Of a stretch of 64,000 nucleotides of DNA, positions 9,925-63,382 are shown piece after piece. The translations under genes and the position numbers were made by a program. Positions within the stretch are counted from its first letter, which is position 1. The number at the start of each line of letters is the position of its first letter. The stretch is from the sequence record PP620640, one strand, 5' to 3'. The notes under the pieces are model-generated. The model did not search any database, was not told where the DNA came from, and saw nothing but the letters and a program-made list of their open reading frames with translations. The stretch comes from Escherichia phage fKMPT1.

Positions 9925-10181
9925 TTTTACTCCCTCTAAAATCATTAACCACATACATTACTGCAAAAAATTATAAAAAGCAAGTTGACAATGTACTTGA
10001 CAAGGTGTTAATCTTTGCGAAGTGGGTTTTTACTTAAAAGGTTACTTAACAGTTTAACTATACAGATACTTTAAAACTCTTAAAAGATTATTTAATAGTT
10101 TTTAAAAAGCTTTAAAGTATAACGTATAGAATACGTTAAGATAAAAGATTAAAACTTAATAGTTACTTAAAAGAGGCTTAC

Positions 10182-46095: not shown

Positions 46096-46188
46096 ACAAG
46101 CCGGATAAAAGCCTGTAAATTGTCAATCAACGGGGAGGGGATGACCTTCCCCCACTAAGTAAAACCCTTAAACTAGGAGATTCAAAAA

Positions 46189-46750: not shown

Positions 46751-47281
46751 ATGAACAAGTTCAAAGCCATCAATTACATCCGCTCAAATGCTGTAATGTC
46801 TAAGCCTGTAAAAGATACCTACGAATTTCGTTGTAATGGTGTACACTTTGCAACAATCACCAAATCAGAAAACGGGGCTTATTACGTCCATCGTCGTAAT
46901 GTTGCAACCGTTGTTGTCTCTCATTTTATGCAAGCTGTCGCGGAGCTTCTCCCGATGTTTTTAGGGCTTTACTTAGATGAGTGTAAAAACGTTCACAGTC
47001 ACGTTAAAAACCTTTTAAATAGTTATAAAATGGCTTACGAGCGTTCTCTCAAGTACTTAAACAAGTTTTATAAAGCCCCTGTAAACACTGTTTCAATGGC
47101 TTACACTGTAAGCGGTGAGCTGGTTAGTCTCTTCGAAGTGGAAGAAATCGAACTGCATGACTTACGCCCTGAAGGTTATTCTAAGACCATCGGCGAAGGT
47201 TTAACGTTCAATATCAAGAACCTAGAAAAAACTTTAAAAGATATCGAAAAAGATATTGACGAGACCATCAAAAATCTGTAA
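46751..47281 (+). CDS. cassette protein 12
   Basis: 176 aa; ATG after type-B leader. Confidence 0.55.
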   Translation: MNKFKAINYIRSNAVMSKPVKDTYEFRCNGVHFATITKSENGAYYVHRRNVATVVVSHFMQAVAELLPMFLGLYLDECKNVHSHVKNLLNSYKMAYERSLKYLNKFYKAPVNTVSMAYTVSGELVSLFEVEEIELHDLRPEGYSKTIGEGLTFNIKNLEKTLKDIEKDIDETIKNL

Positions 47282-47349
47282 ATTGTCAATCAACGGGGAG
47301 GGAATGACCTTCCCCACTAAGTAAAACCCTTAAACTAGGAGATTCAAAA

Positions 47350-47598
47350 ATGGCAACTATCCGCGCAACTGTTAACGAATTCGGCTTCTACTCTCTGGAC
47401 GTTAAATTTGACCTTGTAGGTACTGGTAACGCCTTTGAAATGGTGAAAGGCCTTATCAGTCAGACCATTAAAGACTATAACCCTTCTGATGAGTTCTGGG
47501 AGGAAACAAAACAGGAAGTTTTTACGCATGGACACACCTATCACTATTGGGGTGAAAAAATTGTCTCCCTGTACTATGATAAAGAAGGCACTAACTAA
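47350..47598 (+). CDS. cassette small protein 13
   Basis: 82-aa ORF behind type-B leader. Confidence 0.6.
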   Translation: MATIRATVNEFGFYSLDVKFDLVGTGNAFEMVKGLISQTIKDYNPSDEFWEETKQEVFTHGHTYHYWGEKIVSLYYDKEGTN

Positions 47599-47599
47599 T

Positions 47600-49330
47600 C
47601 AACGCAACGGGGCTAAATAGCCCCAGATACCTTTACAGCCCCTTTATATTGATTCGATAGAATCTATCTCATAGGGGCTTTTTTACATCTCTGTAATAGC
47701 CTCTATACAATCCCTTTCCTTCCCTTTCCAGAATCTATCCCACTAATTCGATAGAATCTTACCAGACCTTAAAAGTAATAACTCTATAGCTTACTCTATA
47801 GCCCCTTATCAAATCAACTTAAATAAAAGCCCATAACCCGAAAGGGAAGGGCAACCACTAAAACGCTATATAAAGCTCTATAACAGCCTTATCAACCTAA
47901 CTTAAGGGATTGCATTACCTCACCCTTAAAAGCCCTTTATAAAGCTTTCTAGGGGGGCTTAAAAGAGTCTTAAAAGAATCTTATAAGGGTGTAAGCTTTA
48001 TCATCTCGTTAGCTATCCTGTGAATAACTAAAAAGGGCTTGTTAGTGTCTTAAAAGTATGTTATAGGGGGCTGTGAAGTTACTTCAAAGTTACGTGAAAG
48101 AGGCTATAAAGTTACGTAAATGCTAGCCCCCTTAACATTTTCTTAACAATTTCTTAACAATCCCTACATAGTTATGCTTGTTAGCAACTTGTTAGCCCCT
48201 TGTTAAATCTCTGTTAAGACCACGTAAAAGCCTTGTAAGAGTCTTTGGCATAGCCTTTAAAGCCCCTGTAAAGCTCTATAAAGAGGTGTCTGTATAGTTG
48301 GGGTGTAATTACTAGGAAGAGGCTTAAAAGAGCTTACAAGGGGCTATAGAGAGCTTTTAAGAGGTATGTTTAAAGAATCACTAAGAGGGAAAGGGAACTA
48401 TAGACCAAGAGATAGTGACCATGTTAATAGCTTGTTAAAAAGATTAAACACTTGTTAGGAATTTGTTAATTATCTTAACAAAATAACTCTTAAAAATTAA
48501 CTTGTTAGCTCTTATTAGTCATCTGTTAAGACTCTGTAAAGCCTATGTATCAACTGTTAAGAAACTGTTACCCTCTTGTTAAAACTGTTAAGAAACTGTT
48601 AAGACCTCTGAAGAGATGTTAAAAAGGTGTAGTATCTGTTAAGAGATTGTTAAGGATATTTTAAAATTCTGCAAAGGGGATGTTACAGGGATGTTAAGGG
48701 CTACCAAGCAGATATACATCTTCTACAGATATTTTTCAGTTCCTTCAAAGACCCTAAAAAATGACTTGATAGTCCTATTTTATAAAAATTTTAAAATTCT
48801 GAATAATTACCTAGACAGTCTTCTAAAAATACAGGCATAAACAGGCTTATAAGATACCTTGTTAGTACCGTGTTAGACCTTGTGAGATAAGGCCTGTAAA
48901 GATATTCCTGTTAAGTTTGTTAAAACAGTCTATATAGAGGCTTAGTAATACCTAGTGAACACCTATAGAGGGTAACATATCTAACCTAGAGATTAAGAGG
49001 TGTATAGGAGCTTCTAAGAGGGTGTAGAGAGATGGTTAAGGTGATTGTATAGGCTGTTAAGAAGGCTTGTTAGAGGGCTTGTTAGAGGGCTATTTAGAAG
49101 GTTTATACAGAGGAGCTATTAAGACCACTAGATAGAGACTAAGATACTATATAGTACTATATAACTATATATATAGAGAGTAAGCTTAAGAAGGATGTTA
49201 AGAAGGATAGATATTTTATTCACATATGATGGTGACCCAGAGGTTGGGACAACCGATAAAATTTTATAAAAATTATAAATTTCGTAAAATTTACTCAATA
49301 AAAAGCCCCCAATTAAGGAGGCTCTTAAGA
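47600..49330. repeat. ORF-free repeat-dense region (TGTTAAG / CTTGTTAG motif clusters)
   Basis: no ORF of 60 aa or more on either strand for 1.7 kb; dozens of short direct repeats; lies between convergent transcription units. Confidence 0.7.
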
Positions 49331-49334
49331 TATT

Positions 49335-49928
49335 TTAAACCAGTGTTTCCAGAACTGTCTTCAGTGATGACTTTGTTGTCTGATAAAAATGAGTAAATCC
49401 ATTGTTGTTATCAAATACCTGCATCATGATATCATCTCCCTTGATTGGGTACACTCGGATATCATAGTGAAAACCATTAAATACAGCAGAACCATTACAG
49501 AATGCTCGAAAGTCATCCACTGAGATATACTCTTCATGACCTGTGATTTTTATACAAACACCTTTACTCGGTCTCTTAGGGTTGATATCTTCCATCACAG
49601 ACATACTCTGTCCACCAAGAGATACCAGAGTGACCACTTTACGGTTCTTCTGTCTAAAGTACATCTTAACTTTCTGCAAAGTGTGTTCATAGAACGGATA
49701 AGATTTCTCTACAAATATTCCTTCAAGTGGCTCTTTACCATTTACAATACCCCTAGTATGCCGTACTGCGAAGATAAGTTGCTTTAGTGTGTCAAGATTT
49801 TCTTCGGATAGTGCTTCCCGAATATCATTCCAGTCAAGGACTAGGTAGTTACCTTCAACATCTTTTAAATTATCTTTTTCCATAGCTATCACACCATTAT
49901 CGTAAAACTTGGTAAGCTGGTACTGCAA
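49335..49928 (-). CDS. hypothetical protein
   Basis: 197-aa ORF. Confidence 0.55.
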   Translation of the reverse strand: MQYQLTKFYDNGVIAMEKDNLKDVEGNYLVLDWNDIREALSEENLDTLKQLIFAVRHTRGIVNGKEPLEGIFVEKSYPFYEHTLQKVKMYFRQKNRKVVTLVSLGGQSMSVMEDINPKRPSKGVCIKITGHEEYISVDDFRAFCNGSAVFNGFHYDIRVYPIKGDDIMMQVFDNNNGFTHFYQTTKSSLKTVLETLV

Positions 49929-50361
49929 ACTTGTTGCCGTTGTTCTTAATGAGGTCTTCTTCTGTTACTAGGAATGTAATCCCACACAAGTGTGTGTATT
50001 GGCTGTCATACTCAAATATTTTAAGTAAGTATTTACCATCGTGATAAACAAATTCTACTACACCTTTTGCAACAATCTTTCCAGTCTTGAAATCTTTAAG
50101 AGAGTATACATTACCAACTTCAGGGGCTGTTTTCATCTCAGGTTCTTTTAGTTTCTCACTAACTTCTACATCACCTAGTAAGTTAGAACTTTCAAAAGCT
50201 CTGAATCTCATATAAGCTTCTGAACATTCCCAGATAAAACAATGTACAAGAACCTTAGCAGCATGTCTTGAGCAATTCAACTCATCACAGATTTCTTTGT
50301 ACATTTCATCTTTAGTTGAATTGGTAAGCATTGCTTTTCGAACTGTTTCTTTAATTTTCAT
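49897..50361 (-). CDS. hypothetical protein
   Basis: 154-aa ORF with AGGAGG RBS. Confidence 0.55.
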   Translation of the reverse strand: MKIKETVRKAMLTNSTKDEMYKEICDELNCSRHAAKVLVHCFIWECSEAYMRFRAFESSNLLGDVEVSEKLKEPEMKTAPEVGNVYSLKDFKTGKIVAKGVVEFVYHDGKYLLKIFEYDSQYTHLCGITFLVTEEDLIKNNGNKFAVPAYQVLR

Positions 50362-56316: not shown

Positions 56317-56688
56317 ATGAAAAACAGAACAAACAAAGGCCAGTTTAAAAAAGGCCAATCTGGAAACCCATCTGGAAGACCAAAAGGCTCTCGTAACAAA
56401 AGCTCACTTGTAAAAGCTCAACTGACCATTGATAATTCTGCTGAGTTTGCTGCAAAGTTGTTTGAGGCGATTGTTACAAGGGATGCTGCTAAGCTTGCAG
56501 AGTTCGGTTTGACGACTGACGATGTAAACCTGAAGTCGATGATGGAAGCTGGTAAAACTATCATGACTCACTCAGCAGGTGAGATGAAAGCCATTGCAGC
56601 AGACACTAAGAAGACTCCTGATAACGGTGGTCAGTCTCAGACAGAAAACAAACCAACGTTCTCTGCTGTTGCAACGCTTAAAAAATAA
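56317..56688 (+). CDS. hypothetical protein with basic N-terminal GNPSGRPKG motif
   Basis: 123-aa ORF. Confidence 0.5.
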   Translation: MKNRTNKGQFKKGQSGNPSGRPKGSRNKSSLVKAQLTIDNSAEFAAKLFEAIVTRDAAKLAEFGLTTDDVNLKSMMEAGKTIMTHSAGEMKAIAADTKKTPDNGGQSQTENKPTFSAVATLKK

Positions 56689-58680: not shown

Positions 58681-58763
58681 AATTTACAGAAGACCGTTTA
58701 CAGCAATATTTATTAAATTTTTAGCGGAAAAATTGAAAGATACGGTCTGGTAATACTAAACAT

Positions 58764-58840
58764 GGTTAGGAAGCACATAAGGTATGTGCGGTCGCCTGTT
58801 AAGCGAATGGCACAGGGTTCGAATCCCTGACTAACCGCCA
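58764..58840 (+). tRNA. tRNA-Asn (anticodon GTT)
   Basis: cloverleaf with perfect T-stem, CCA encoded. Confidence 0.65.
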
Positions 58841-58909
58841 AATTTAGGAGAGAAGCGATTGCTCACCGATTTGTAAGGTGCAAGTCCTTAGCCTGAATAG
58901 AAATTAAAT

Positions 58910-58997
58910 GTGTCGTTATCCCGTAGATGGTAGCGGTGGGGACTGTAAATCCCTTGTCATTGAGACTCGGTAGGTTCGACTCCTACACGGCACACCA
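58910..58997 (+). tRNA. tRNA-Tyr (anticodon GTA), long variable arm
   Basis: 88 nt type II structure, anticodon loop CTGTAAA. Confidence 0.7.
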
Positions 58998-59003
58998 AAT
59001 AAA

Positions 59004-59081
59004 GGTTATGTAGTTTAATCTGGTTAAAATACTCCCCTGTCACGGGAGATGATGAGGGTTCGAATCCCTTCGTAACCGCCA
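59004..59081 (+). tRNA. tRNA-Asp (anticodon GTC)
   Basis: anticodon arm ctccc-CTGTCAC-gggag. Confidence 0.7.
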
Positions 59082-59537
59082 AATTATAATAAGTATTTCA
59101 AAATGATGTTTTGAGAGGGCTATTTAGCCCCTCCCTTAAAGAGTTCTTACGAGTATTCTTTAAAGGAGCAGAAGACCAAATTCAGCAAGAACGTATGAAA
59201 TTTCAAGCCAATTTAATTTTGAAAATTTAAAACTTGGTCTGGCTCAACAAATTTACAGAAGACCGTTTACAGCAAAACTTAAACAATCTATTTCTCGGTA
59301 AAGAAAAGGCGAAGGTTCGATTCCTTCACTCGGCAGATGTCGAGTTGGTGTAATGGTAGCACTTAAGATGATAAACAACGGTCTGGTAATTGTCTTTGCA
59401 GTAGCTTATGTGGCTAATTATGTCGTCCCATGAGTGCCGATGAATTTCCTTAGCATGATTCTAGATTAGCTTAATAGGAAATGACTCTACAGACCCTTTA
59501 GCAAGGTCTGCGTAGGTTACTGCAAAGATAATTTAAT

Positions 59538-59613
59538 GGAAGTGTAGCAGAATGGTGATGCGGCAGACTTTTAATCTGACAGGCGATGGGTTCGAATCCC
59601 TCCACTTCTACCA
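59538..59613 (+). tRNA. tRNA-Lys (anticodon TTT)
   Basis: cloverleaf; weak T-stem; paralogous to 60859-60934. Confidence 0.55.
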
Positions 59614-59617
59614 ATAT

Positions 59618-59694
59618 GGTTCAGTCGCAGATAAGGTAATGCAGGGGTTTCATAAGCCCTATGAATGTGGGTTCGATTCCCATCTGAACCTCCA
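59618..59694 (+). tRNA. tRNA-Met/Ile2 (anticodon CAT)
   Basis: perfect acceptor stem, anticodon loop TTCATAA. Confidence 0.65.
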
Positions 59695-59696
59695 AT

Positions 59697-59771
59697 TGTG
59701 GGTTAGCATAAATGGTAATGCAAACGGCTGATAACCGTTAGAAGAGGGTTCGATACCCTCACCTACAACCA
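59697..59771 (+). tRNA. tRNA-Ile (anticodon GAT)
   Basis: anticodon arm aacgg-CTGATAA-ccgtt perfect. Confidence 0.7.
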
Positions 59772-59786
59772 ATTTCAATAAAGTTG

Positions 59787-59815
59787 TTGACATTGAGATG
59801 TGACTACTTTATAGT
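59787..59815 (+). promoter_or_regulatory. sigma70-like promoter inside tRNA region
   Basis: TTGACA - 17 nt - TATAGT. Confidence 0.55.
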
Positions 59816-60109
59816 AACTGAAAATGATTCAGCATATGTATAATTCAAACACCAATACATGAGCGTTAGACGTAACACAATGTGGGGAAATTTGTTGTAC
59901 ATATTCTGAATAGTTTTCGTTGCGTAGCGTCTATTTTGCAAAGTTAAAATAAATGCAAACGACAATGTTTTTCTGGCAGTAGCTTGATAGGCTAAACACC
60001 AGTGAGGTCTTCCAACCCCTCATCAAAGAATTTGGCGTACTAGCCCACGGTATGATTAATAAGGTGGGCATCTTTAAGGGCTTTCTAAGAGAGTCTTTAA
60101 AGATAATTA

Positions 60110-60191
60110 CGGGGCGTATCTCAGCTGTCTTCTAAACAGCCGTTAACCGAGTAAGTGGAGTATGCGGGTTCGAGTCCTGCCGCCTCGACCA
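60110..60191 (+). tRNA. tRNA-like gene, non-canonical (no D-arm; anticodon-like hairpin with TCT)
   Basis: perfect acceptor and T-arm with CCA; internal hairpin gctgt-CTTCTAA-acagc; only 7 nt where D-arm should be. Confidence 0.4.
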
Positions 60192-60334
60192 ATTTAGTTA
60201 GCAGATTACTTAGACGACCTTATCGGGTCTTCCTGTAGGGAGGTGGTCTGTATCTCATGTTTTCCAGAACATGTAAATAATCTGAGAAGGGGCTTTACAG
60301 TGTTGTGAAAATACGGTAAGCTTCGAACTATAAT

Positions 60335-60417
60335 GTGGGACGATGTTAAGACTCTAAGGCATGAGCAACGGCTTCCAACACCGTTTCAAAGGGGTTCAAA
60401 TCCTCCGTCCCATGCCA
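60335..60417 (+). tRNA. tRNA-like gene, isotype undetermined (9-nt loop hairpin containing CCA/TCC)
   Basis: acceptor/T-arm/CCA canonical; internal hairpin aacgg-CTTCCAACA-ccgtt; D region irregular. Confidence 0.4.
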
Positions 60418-60430
60418 AAGTCTTATTAGG

Positions 60431-60518
60431 GGTAGGTAGCGGCTAATGGTAGCCAAACTGTCTTGAAAACAGTTGCCACTGTAGAGATACGGTGAGGGTT
60501 CGACTCCTTTACTTACCG
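60431..60518 (+). tRNA. tRNA-Ser (anticodon TGA), long variable arm; CCA not encoded
   Basis: anticodon arm actgt-CTTGAAA-acagt perfect; 20-nt variable arm. Confidence 0.65.
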
Positions 60519-62554: not shown

Positions 62555-62631
62555 TAGTCCAAGTAGCTTATATGGTTAAAGCGCGTGTCTGAAAAACATG
62601 AGAAGAGGGTTCAAATCCCACTGGACTACCA
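62555..62631 (+). tRNA. tRNA-Phe (anticodon GAA), boundaries approximate
   Basis: anticodon arm cgtgt-CTGAAAA-acatg; acceptor/D junction irregular. Confidence 0.5.
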
Positions 62632-62646
62632 ATTTCAAAGGTGCTT

Positions 62647-63382
62647 AATGAAAGAGATGACAGAACAAGGTAAGGAGATTTTTAATCTCTTAAAAACTGG
62701 TAAAGGGTTTTCTAACCCCCTTATTACTGGTGCAGCAGTTCTCGGTGGAACCGTAGCTGCCTCTACATCACTTGTAAGCTCTATTAGCTCTGTAACAGAC
62801 CCTACAATAAAAGATAAGCTTGTTGCTGCTGGGCTTACAACAGTTCTGCTTAGCAGCTTTACAACGAGTCTGACAAGCACTACAGCAACTACTAAGACCC
62901 TAACAGACTATGGTCAAAAGTCCATTGATGAGTTTTCATCACGTATGCAGGTAGCAAAAGGTTATTCTAATGCTATGGGTGCAGCAGGTGAACAAGTTGG
63001 CTGTACACCATTTAGTGGTATTATGGGTGTTGCTACAGAGTATGGTCAAAAAGCTATGGATACGATTAACAGCGCACTAGATGGCGTTAATGATGTATTA
63101 AGCGACTTACAAGATGCTATTGACAAAGGTCTTGATACTGTTTCTGATTTAGCTAACCAAGCTGTTAGCAAGATTAATGAAGGTATCTCGAAGATTACAG
63201 CTTATGCAGATGAAGTTGTGCAGATGATTGAAGAAGAAGCTGCCCTTATTGCAGAGTACCTTAAAACGAATATCAATGGGTTCTTAGCAGGTATCTTACC
63301 AGACTGGTTTGATGATGCTTGTAAAACTGGTGTGATTGATACTATTGCAACACCAGAAATGAAGAACGCATTACAGAAATAA
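62647..63382 (+). CDS. hypothetical Ser/Thr/Ala-rich protein
   Basis: about 245 aa from ATG after AAAGG; track ORF start 62585 overlaps tRNA-Phe and is unlikely. Confidence 0.5.

What the first reader, a model, noticed from the sequence alone, without database searches (positions are those of the whole stretch)
47600..49330. 1.7 kb ORF-free region saturated with TGTTAAG / CTTGTTAG short repeats between convergent transcription units
No ORF of 60 aa or more on either strand, which is exceptional in this densely coded genome. It contains dozens of copies of (C)TGTTAAG(A), CTTGTTAG, TTCTTAACAA and tandem GGGCTTGTTAGAGGGCTTGTTAGAGGGC. This looks like clustered protein-binding sites: candidate replication origin, packaging-initiation site, injection-stop/terminal-repeat boundary, or a non-coding RNA locus.
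Basis: seen in the sequence. Interest (0 to 1): 0.6.

Follow-up and report, generated by a model that had tools for sequence, protein, structure and literature searches.

The report
Felix O1-type phage genome ends
The gene-free, repeat-filled stretch is where this Felix O1-type phage's DNA is cut for packaging: a terminal repeat of about 580 bp plus its non-coding flanks, already mapped by experiment in a close relative, so it is real but largely ordinary.

Summary
Window 47599-49334 has no ORF of 60 aa or more. It holds 31 TGTTA[AG] sites where about 2 are expected (Poisson p about 1e-26), mostly 11 bp or multiples apart.

The window is a Felixounavirus, 99.9% identical to Salmonella phage fBSPA4 over this stretch. 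The core of the region, 48126/48134-48705/48707, is the homologue of the short direct terminal repeat (DTR). That repeat was determined experimentally in UAB_Phi87 (Bal31 digestion plus run-off sequencing, PMC4837284). It is also present or annotated at the ends of the GenBank records of E9, Pr103Blw and HP1.

So the "convergent junction" is really the two physical ends of the linear genome joined together. Both boundaries lie in nearly invariant blocks across three genera, and recognisable counterparts exist in an Erwinia Kolesnikvirus.

Within the repeat arrays the TGTTA core is better conserved than its flanks, and the array is kept across the subfamily. I infer, untested, that the sites are phased binding sites for the packaging or terminase machinery.

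A replication origin, a non-coding RNA or small genes are not supported.

The identity of the region is already known. The function of the repeats is not. Interest is low to moderate.

The parts
47609..47684 (+). Terminator-like hairpins that close the + strand early-gene unit: GGGGCT-AAAT-AGCCCC, then AGCCCCT...AGGGGCT followed by a T run.
   Evidence: Read directly from the sequence. The AYO145A record annotates a rho-independent terminator at the homologous place, as does the Mijalis record.
47685..48125 (.). Left non-coding arm. In virion DNA it lies just inside the right-hand copy of the terminal repeat. It is rich in the looser CTTAAAAG / CTATAAAG / CTTATAAG family, often 11 bp apart.
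   Evidence: This is the least conserved part of the region (identity 0.64-0.81 to relatives).
48124..48137 (.). Left DTR boundary block TAGCCCCCTTAACA. The end lies at 48126 (records opened at their termini) or 48134 (run-off sequencing of UAB_Phi87). It forms an imperfect inverted repeat with 48692-48703.
   Evidence: TAGCCCCCTT is invariant in 17 sequences of 3 genera, and the block differs at one base in 2 of them. E9, Pr103Blw and HP1 all start GCCCCCTTAACA. The block is unique in the window.
48126..48707 (.). Direct terminal repeat (DTR) homologue, about 574-582 bp. It would be present at both ends of virion DNA.
   Evidence: The UAB_Phi87 DTR sequence (Fig. S1 of PMC4837284) aligns to 48134-48707 with 511 matching bases. 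The exact 580-bp end duplication of E9 maps to 48126-48705. Pr103Blw is annotated 'short direct terminal repeat' 1-581. HP1 has repeat_region 1-570.
48132..48159 (-). Three inverted motif copies (TTAACA at 48132, 48143, 48154; 11-bp spacing) immediately inside the left boundary.
   Evidence: Retained in 88-100% of relatives. One relative has 5 copies.
48179..48217 (+). Four direct TGTTA[AG] copies at an exact 11-bp spacing.
48422..48697 (+). Main array: 14 direct and 1 inverted TGTTA[AG] copies, ending with ATGTTAAGGG at the right boundary.
48692..48718 (.). Right DTR boundary block TGTTAAGGGCTACC|AA|GCAGATATACA. The end lies at 48705 (record ends) or 48707 (run-off sequencing).
   Evidence: 22 consecutive invariant columns (AGGGCTACCAAGCAGATATACA) in 17 sequences of 3 genera. 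AAGCAGATATACA is also present in Erwinia phage Tian. The block is unique in the window.
48708..49297 (.). Right non-coding arm. In virion DNA it lies just inside the left-hand copy of the terminal repeat. It contains further TGTTA[AG] pairs and triplets (48860/48871, 48909/48918, 49055/49068/49080, 49196), AT-rich tracts (48775-48810, 49255-49300) and a TATA-rich stretch (49140-49175).
   Evidence: Identity to relatives is 0.71-0.95.
49306..49320 (-). Intrinsic-terminator-like hairpin closing the - strand unit.
   Evidence: The AYO145A record annotates a terminator at the homologous place.
56317..56688 (+). Gene for a 123-aa DUF5681 protein. By inference only, it is a candidate small terminase or DNA-recognition subunit that could read the repeats.
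   Evidence: Pfam DUF5681, E = 7e-14. Invariant basic N-terminal motif GNPxGRPKGSRNK. In distant homologues the gene overlaps the start of the large terminase gene or lies in the same operon. The structure model was uninformative.

Best explanation
The region is the genome-end region of a Felix O1-type phage (Felixounavirus).

Shown by homology to mapped ends:
- Window about 48126-48707 is the short exact direct terminal repeat (DTR).
- In replicating concatemers, and in circularised assemblies such as this window, one copy sits between the last early gene (+ strand) and the last gene of the lysis/tail unit (- strand).
- In virion DNA the genome starts at about 48126 and ends at about 48705, with the roughly 580 bp duplicated. 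The two 'convergent' units are therefore the two ends of the linear chromosome, each transcribed outwards.

Inferred:
- Terminase recognises the junction through the phased TGTTA[AG] sites. These have a spacing of about 10.5-11 bp, so they sit on one face of the helix.
- The sites point outwards towards both boundaries: three inverted copies at the left, direct copies at the right, each ending in TGTTAAGGG(GG)CTA.
- Terminase nicks opposite strands at the two boundary blocks, and strand-displacement synthesis then duplicates the repeat. This is a Watson/T7-type resolution of concatemers.
- The flanking arms carry the terminators and further sites.
- The DUF5681 protein at 56317-56688 is a candidate for the DNA-recognition subunit.
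For: Taxon: 99.9% identity to Salmonella phage fBSPA4. 256 phage records hold a match, 196 of them covering at least 80% of the region.

Experimental DTR: the 608-bp DTR of UAB_Phi87 was found by Bal31 digestion plus run-off sequencing. Its published sequence aligns to 48134-48707.

Independent record ends:
- E9 has a 580-bp exact duplication at both ends, mapping to 48126-48705. Its announcement states that PhageTerm indicated DTRs for all six genomes it reports.
- Pr103Blw has an annotated DTR at 1-581 and a reported PhageTerm DTR of 581 bp.
- Mooglevirus HP1 has repeat_region 1-570 with the same first and last bases.
- Many other records start or stop within about 20 bp of these points.

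Boundaries: they lie in nearly or fully invariant blocks in 17 sequences of 3 genera. Recognisable counterparts about 440 bp apart exist in a Kolesnikvirus.

Motif:
- 31 sites against 1.9 expected.
- Phasing is strongest at a period of 10-10.5 bp.
- Core positions are 0.92-0.95 conserved against 0.78-0.85 for the flanks.
- Motif 6-mers are retained exactly in 77% of relatives, against 51% for other 6-mers (p = 4e-6).
- The same array is present in Erwinia phage Tian, although only about 125 bp of the 681-bp query aligned, at 69% identity.

Constraint: the non-coding DNA is about 76-78% identical between genera, while the adjacent 182-aa protein is only 48-55% identical.
Against: - No sequencing reads or virion DNA of this particular phage were available, so the DTR is assigned by homology only.
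- The left end differs by 8 bp between the run-off sequencing of UAB_Phi87 (48134) and the records opened at their termini (48126). The right end differs by 2 bp.
- One paper reports headful/pac packaging for another Felixounavirus, SEP1.
- Nothing shows that any protein binds TGTTA[AG].
- The sequence just upstream of the left cut is not invariant, so the symmetric-nicking idea rests on a 12-bp imperfect inverted repeat.
- The terminase role of DUF5681 rests on gene neighbourhood alone. The AlphaFold model was of low confidence and gave no PDB match.
Confidence: 0.85

Rival explanations
1. Replication origin. The phased short direct repeats act as iterons for an initiator protein, and the adjacent AT-rich tracts (48775-48810, 49255-49300) act as unwinding elements. 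This could be in addition to the terminal-repeat role.
For: Many direct repeats lie next to tracts of 78-84% AT. The region is non-coding and conserved. Nothing tested here excludes a dual role.
Against: Cumulative GC skew has a local maximum here. Its minimum lies at about 10 kb, at the divergent DNA-polymerase / primase-helicase junction, although skew also follows gene orientation. The units are 7-8 bp at 11-bp spacing rather than the typical 17-22-bp iterons (own knowledge). No initiator-like gene is adjacent: both neighbours belong to PHROG families of unknown function. The arrays are oriented with respect to the mapped DNA ends.
Confidence: 0.1
2. Headful (pac) packaging site. The repeats form a pac site from which permuted, terminally redundant genomes are cut, and there is no fixed DTR.
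For: The SEP1 paper reports pac/headful packaging from PhageTerm. Phased short repeats around a cut site resemble the P1 pac site (own knowledge).
Against: Bal31 digestion removed two discrete restriction fragments of UAB_Phi87, and run-off sequencing gave sharp ends. E9, Pr103Blw and HP1 share identical first and last bases, with exact duplications of 570-581 bp.
Confidence: 0.04
3. Non-coding RNA locus or unannotated small genes.
For: A long conserved gap with no annotated gene. Some records annotate small hypothetical ORFs here.
Against: No Rfam match at E <= 1. Folding energy is no better than shuffles (z = -0.76, -1.01, -0.49). Promoter-like sites are only slightly above chance (14 against 8.6 +/- 3.0). 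The three longest small ORFs that start inside the region and lie wholly within the alignment (30, 49 and 56 aa) are broken by stops or frameshifts in most relatives; the fourth, 49226-49396 (56 aa), overlaps the 3' end of the downstream gene on the opposite strand and was not checked. Terminators face inwards from both sides.
Confidence: 0.03

Closest known systems
Direct terminal repeat of Salmonella phage UAB_Phi87 (Felixounavirus), mapped by Bal31 digestion and run-off sequencing (Bardina et al. 2016, PMC4837284). Also the annotated DTRs of Escherichia phage vB_EcoM-Pr103Blw (MW481326) and Citrobacter phage HP1 (OK539913).
   Same: Homologous sequence: 86.4% identity over the DTR to the UAB_Phi87 record, with 511 matching bases against its published sequence. 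Same boundary blocks, same flanking genes and same motif arrays.
   Different: The ends of this particular phage are not mapped. There are point differences and small differences in repeat copy number. None of those papers or records describes the TGTTA[AG] arrays or proposes a function for them, in the passages I retrieved.
Phage T7/T3 concatemer junction: a 160-bp terminal repeat flanked by arrays of short imperfect repeats (SRL/SRR) and pac elements. Recalled from my own knowledge (Dunn and Studier 1983; Chung and Hinkle 1990), not checked here.
   Same: A short exact DTR, non-coding, with arrays of 7-8-bp repeats in and beside it. Ends are generated from concatemers, and the repeat must be duplicated.
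   Different: No sequence similarity. The repeat is about 3.6 times longer. The terminase lineage differs (Felix O1-type TerL groups apart). The T7 mechanism uses a transcription-dependent hairpin route, which has not been shown here.
P1 pac site and lambda cosB: phased short protein-binding repeats that position terminase next to its cut site. Recalled from my own knowledge.
   Same: Multiple short, helically phased sites flanking a terminase cleavage point.
   Different: P1 packages by headful, and lambda makes cohesive ends. The motifs are unrelated. Here there are two cut points about 580 bp apart.

Membership tests
Short exact DTR genome ends of Felix O1-type phages (Ounavirinae) | Sequence homologous to an experimentally mapped DTR of a member of the group | tested here: met
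   The UAB_Phi87 DTR aligns end to end with 48134-48707. Megablast identity to the UAB_Phi87 record is 86.4%.
Short exact DTR genome ends of Felix O1-type phages (Ounavirinae) | Boundaries coincide with independently determined ends in other members and are conserved | tested here: met
   E9, Pr103Blw and HP1 start at the homologue of 48126 and end at 48705/6. The boundary blocks are nearly or fully invariant in 17 sequences.
Short exact DTR genome ends of Felix O1-type phages (Ounavirinae) | The same sequence is physically present at both ends of this phage's virion DNA (fixed ends, about 2-fold read coverage) | not testable with these tools
   No reads or virion DNA are available. The window, like the fBSPA4 record, carries a single internal copy.
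Short exact DTR genome ends of Felix O1-type phages (Ounavirinae) | Large terminase of the Felix O1 DTR clade | not tested
   TerL lies outside the window, at fBSPA4 positions 1-1602. PMC4837284 places Felix O1-type TerL proteins in a DTR cluster.
Iteron-type replication origin | Strand-composition switch of origin polarity, iterons of about 17-22 bp, and an adjacent initiator gene | tested here: not met
   The skew maximum, not the minimum, lies here. The repeat units are 7-8 bp. Neighbouring genes have unknown function. AT-rich tracts are present, so this is not excluded as a secondary role.
Headful pac site | Permuted, heterogeneous ends downstream of a single initiation cut | tested here: not met
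   Relatives have identical fixed ends and exact duplications. One contrary report exists for SEP1.
Known non-coding RNA families (Rfam 15) | Match to a covariance model, or excess thermodynamic structure | tested here: not met
   0 matches at E <= 1. Folding z-scores are -0.5 to -1.0.
T5-type injection-stop signal | Two-step DNA transfer that pauses at a defined site within a long terminal repeat | not testable with these tools
   No data on DNA entry. The repeat here is 0.58 kb, against about 10 kb in T5 (own knowledge).
Small terminase subunit (for the DUF5681 protein at 56317-56688) | Gene adjacent to TerL, an oligomeric DNA-binding fold, and binding to the packaging site | tested here: inconclusive
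   In two distant homologues the gene overlaps TerL, and in a third it shares an operon with TerL. Two other contigs were too short to tell. In this phage the gene lies about 7.3 kb upstream of TerL. The model has pLDDT 68 and no PDB match. Binding is untested.

The most novel reading that the evidence does not exclude
The TGTTA[AG] arrays, conserved across the Ounavirinae from Salmonella, E. coli and Citrobacter phages to an Erwinia Kolesnikvirus, are the recognition lattice for a so far unrecognised small terminase. The candidate is the DUF5681 protein, which carries an AT-hook-like GRPKGSRNK motif, in a phage group described as having no TerS. The imperfect inverted repeat TAGCCC(CC)TTAACA / TGTTAAGGGCTA at the two boundaries marks symmetric nicks on opposite strands. 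That would be a sequence-defined version of the Watson model for duplicating a terminal repeat.
Probability: 0.3. Interest if true: 0.45.

Novelty: already known. Interest (0 to 1): 0.25.

Why it matters
In practice, most Felixounavirus records in GenBank are opened arbitrarily (at rIIA or TerL) and leave this 1.7-kb gap unannotated. Of the 90 records listed, none carries a terminal-repeat annotation here. The window's closest relative, fBSPA4, shows 'none' under the match. Recognising the gap as the DTR gives the true genome ends and length (add about 580 bp) and the true gene order.

That matters for phages used in Salmonella typing and biocontrol, and for engineering work such as that on Bas63.

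Mechanistically, the group is a tractable case of a short-DTR myovirus whose end-recognition signals are unusually explicit: phased 7-bp sites plus invariant cut-site blocks. If binding were demonstrated, it would help explain how short exact terminal repeats are recognised and duplicated outside the T7 group.

Tried and rejected
- Rfam scan of 47000-50000 at E <= 1: nothing.
- RNA folding of the DTR and of both strands of the right arm: not better than shuffles.
- Promoter and terminator scan: only weak promoter-like matches, plus one terminator at 49306-49320.
- Small ORFs (48366-48458, 48691-48840, 49128-49298): not conserved as reading frames.
- GC skew as a test for an origin: maximum here and minimum at about 10 kb, but confounded with gene orientation.
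- tblastn with the flanking 182-aa protein to reach other genera: only Felixounavirus, Mooglevirus and Suspvirus were found.
- IMG/VR scan with the 82-aa flanking protein: only 8 loci.
- Search for transcriptome data on Felixounavirus: none in the library.
- The Felix O1, wV8, Danish wastewater, BASEL and PhageMaP papers: no description of this region was found in the passages retrieved. The Felix O1 paper only infers 'short terminal repeats' from genome size.
- AlphaFold plus Foldseek for the DUF5681 protein: low confidence, no match.
- A resemblance of CTGTTAAGAAACTGTTAAG to the PhoB box or to DnaA boxes was considered from memory. I did not pursue it, because the core bases differ and the motif occurs nowhere else in the window in clusters.

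Full report
**What is in the sequence**

The interval 47599-49334 contains no ORF of 60 aa or more on either strand. It is the second-longest such gap in the 64-kb window. The only longer one, 58682-60491, is the tRNA cluster.

The hexamer TGTTA[AG] or its complement occurs 31 times between 48040 and 49201, 27 on the + strand and 4 on the - strand. Elsewhere the rate is 1.67 per kb, so 1.94 are expected (Poisson p = 1.6e-26). CTTGTTAG (8 copies, 0.01 expected) and CTGTTAAG (8 copies, 0.10 expected) are the most enriched octamers.

Neighbouring sites are mostly 11 bp apart, or 20-22 or 31 bp apart. Pairwise distances are most coherent at a period of 10-10.5 bp, so most sites face the same side of the helix. 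The extended consensus is RRCY-TGTTA-AGA.

A looser family (CTTAAAAG, CTATAAAG, CTGTAAAG, CTTATAAG) is about 8-fold enriched and dominates the left part. The tandem GGGCTTGTTAGAGGGCTTGTTAGAGGGC is real (49055-49091). It is a lineage-specific duplication: the third copy is kept in only 6% of relatives.

**What organism this is**

The region is 99.9% identical to Salmonella phage fBSPA4. It matches 256 phage records, nearly all Felixounavirus, Mooglevirus or Suspvirus of the subfamily Ounavirinae. In the records listed it is almost always unannotated, or carries only small 'hypothetical' ORFs, short repeat_region features or terminators.

The window runs from the nucleotide-metabolism and replication genes, through rIIA/rIIB and a block of small early genes on the + strand, to this gap. 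It then continues through lysis and tail genes on the - strand, a tRNA cluster, and the genes just upstream of TerL.

**What the region is**

Many GenBank records begin or end inside the gap, clustered at two points.

- Escherichia phage vB_EcoM_E9 carries an exact 580-bp duplication at its two ends. Its genome announcement states that PhageTerm indicated direct terminal repeats for all six genomes it reports. The duplication maps to window 48126-48705.
- vB_EcoM-Pr103Blw is annotated 'short direct terminal repeat region' at 1-581. Its paper reports a 581-bp DTR from PhageTerm.
- Citrobacter phage HP1, a Mooglevirus, has repeat_region 1-570 with the same first bases (GCCCCCTTAACA) and last bases (GGGCTACC).

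Most importantly, Bardina et al. 2016 determined the ends of the Felixounavirus UAB_Phi87 experimentally. Bal31 digestion removed two SpeI fragments, and run-off sequencing gave sharp ends and a DTR of 608 bp. The sequence printed in their Figure S1 aligns from its first to its last base with window 48134-48707.

The centre of the finding is therefore the short direct terminal repeat of the phage. The 'convergent junction' is the joint between the right end and the left end of the linear genome, as it appears in a concatemer or a circularised assembly. The two ends differ slightly between methods, 48126 against 48134 and 48705 against 48707, and I leave that open.

**Conservation**

I aligned 17 homologous gaps from three genera.

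- The left boundary block TAGCCCCCTT-ACATT is nearly invariant: 15 of its 16 positions are identical in all 17 sequences.
- The right boundary block AGGGCTACCAAGCAGATATACA gives 22 consecutive invariant columns.
- Both blocks are unique in the window.
- They form an imperfect inverted repeat, TAGCCC(CC)TTAACA against TGTTAAGGGCTA. Both 5' ends of the mature DNA would therefore begin G...CCCTTAACAT.

Within the arrays, the TGTTA core is 0.92-0.95 conserved and the adjacent positions 0.78-0.85. Motif hexamers are retained exactly in 77% of relatives, against 51% for other hexamers of the gap (Mann-Whitney p = 4e-6, with the caveat that the control windows overlap).

Between genera the DTR is about 76-78% identical in nucleotides. 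The adjacent 182-aa protein is only 48-55% identical in amino acids, and the upstream 82-aa protein falls to 55% in one locus whose DTR is still 92% identical.

Erwinia phage Tian (Kolesnikvirus) aligned only over about 125 bp at 69% identity. Even so, it has an equivalent 1.4-kb gap between convergent units. That gap holds 17 TGTTAA sites at 11-bp spacing, inverted copies at the left, and recognisable left and right boundary counterparts (including AAGCAGATATACA) about 440 bp apart. Its left arm uses a different phased motif, CTTCTAA(A/G). The architecture is thus subfamily-wide.

**How it most likely works**

Shown by homology to mapped ends: the roughly 580 bp are duplicated at the ends of virion DNA.

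Inferred:

- The phased, oriented sites are where the packaging machinery assembles on the concatemer junction.
- Seen from inside the repeat, both boundaries look alike. A run of TGTTAAG sites leads outwards to TGTTAAGGG(GG)CTA and then to the cut.
- A single sequence-specific nicking activity working in opposite orientation at the two boundaries would nick opposite strands about 580 bp apart.
- Each nick would create the 5' end of a mature strand. Extension of the 3' ends with strand displacement would then duplicate the repeat. This is the classical Watson/T7-type scheme, recalled from my own knowledge.

I rate the DTR identity at about 0.85-0.9. The reading of the sites as binding sites of the packaging machinery gets about 0.45, and the symmetric-nick detail about 0.25.

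**A candidate reader of the sites**

Felix O1-type phages are described as lacking a small terminase. The first gene of the + strand late unit, 56317-56688, encodes a 123-aa DUF5681 protein. Its N-terminal motif FKKGQSGNPxGRPKGSRNK is conserved in all 25 aligned homologues: 9 columns are invariant and 5 more are at least 90% conserved. From memory it resembles an AT-hook, which I did not test.

In two distant homologues the gene overlaps the start of the large terminase gene. In a third it shares an operon with TerL and a Mu-type portal. Two further contigs were too short to tell. The structure model was of low confidence and had no PDB match. This is a lead, not a finding.

**Rivals**

- Replication origin: repeats and AT-rich tracts are present, but cumulative GC skew peaks here and has its minimum at about 10 kb. 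The repeat units are much shorter than typical iterons, and no initiator gene is adjacent. A secondary origin role is not excluded.
- Headful pac site: contradicted by the fixed, identical ends in several phages, although one paper claims headful packaging for SEP1.
- Non-coding RNA or small genes: no Rfam match, no excess structure, and ORFs broken in relatives.
- T5-type injection stop: cannot be tested here.

**Comparison with what is known, and novelty**

The region belongs to an already described feature, the short DTR of Felix O1-type phages. It was mapped experimentally in 2016 and is annotated in a few records.

Functionally it resembles the T7/T3 concatemer junction, which has a short DTR with arrays of short repeats beside it. 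It also resembles, in the use of phased sites next to a cut, P1 pac and lambda cosB. It shares no sequence with any of them, and the last three comparisons are from memory.

In the passages and annotations I read, the TGTTA[AG] lattice, its orientation towards both ends, its conservation out to Kolesnikvirus, and the terminase-linked DUF5681 protein are not described. These are modest additions.

**Verdict**

The feature is real, correctly noticed and partly correctly interpreted. Its identity is already known. Interest is 0.25.

Noticed in passing
window 56317-56688 (+): A 123-aa DUF5681 protein with a conserved basic N-terminal motif, GNPxGRPKGSRNK, that looks AT-hook-like. In distant homologues the gene overlaps the start of the large terminase gene. 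This makes it a candidate small terminase in a phage group said to lack one.
   Followed up: partly
L010:4246-6046 (84,419-bp IMG/VR contig, the same length as the Salmonella phage Si3 record), aligned to window 48130-48160: It has five instead of three copies of the 11-bp unit TTTTCTTAACA at the left DTR boundary, so the repeat copy number varies between isolates.
   Followed up: no
window 47270-47354, with copies at 46113, 44923, 44060, 46712, 41979, 43128, 45231 and 42310: A repeated element of up to 85 bp lies between the small early genes and covers the ribosome-binding site and the first codons. It probably corresponds to the direct repeats between early genes noted in the Felix O1 paper.
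   Followed up: partly
GenBank GU169904.1 (Staphylococcus phage SA1), 135848-136528: A record named as a Staphylococcus phage carries a 90% identical copy of this enterobacterial Felixounavirus DTR region. The record is probably chimeric or contaminated.
   Followed up: no
window 62585-63382 (+): A 265-aa ORF (Pfam DUF7217, E = 5e-89) sits inside the tRNA cluster and is not annotated in the near-identical fBSPA4 record.
   Followed up: partly
L024:1700-2100 (Erwinia phage Tian, OQ818709.1): The left arm of the equivalent gap uses a different 11-bp-phased motif, CTTCTAA(A/G), about 12 copies. The TGTTAAG array and the AAGCAGATATACA block are shared with the Salmonella and E. coli phages. The boundary counterparts about 440 bp apart would predict a DTR of roughly that size.
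   Followed up: partly
window about 9955-10181: The cumulative GC-skew minimum of the window lies at the divergent junction between the DNA polymerase unit (-) and the primase-helicase unit (+). This is a more plausible place for a replication origin than the finding.
   Followed up: no
literature: PMC13431587 (phage SEP1) against PMC4837284, PMC8303462 and PMC11737134: Published packaging assignments for Felixounavirus disagree: headful/pac for SEP1, against a fixed DTR of 580-608 bp in the other three papers. Most GenBank records are neither opened at the ends nor annotated there.
   Followed up: partly
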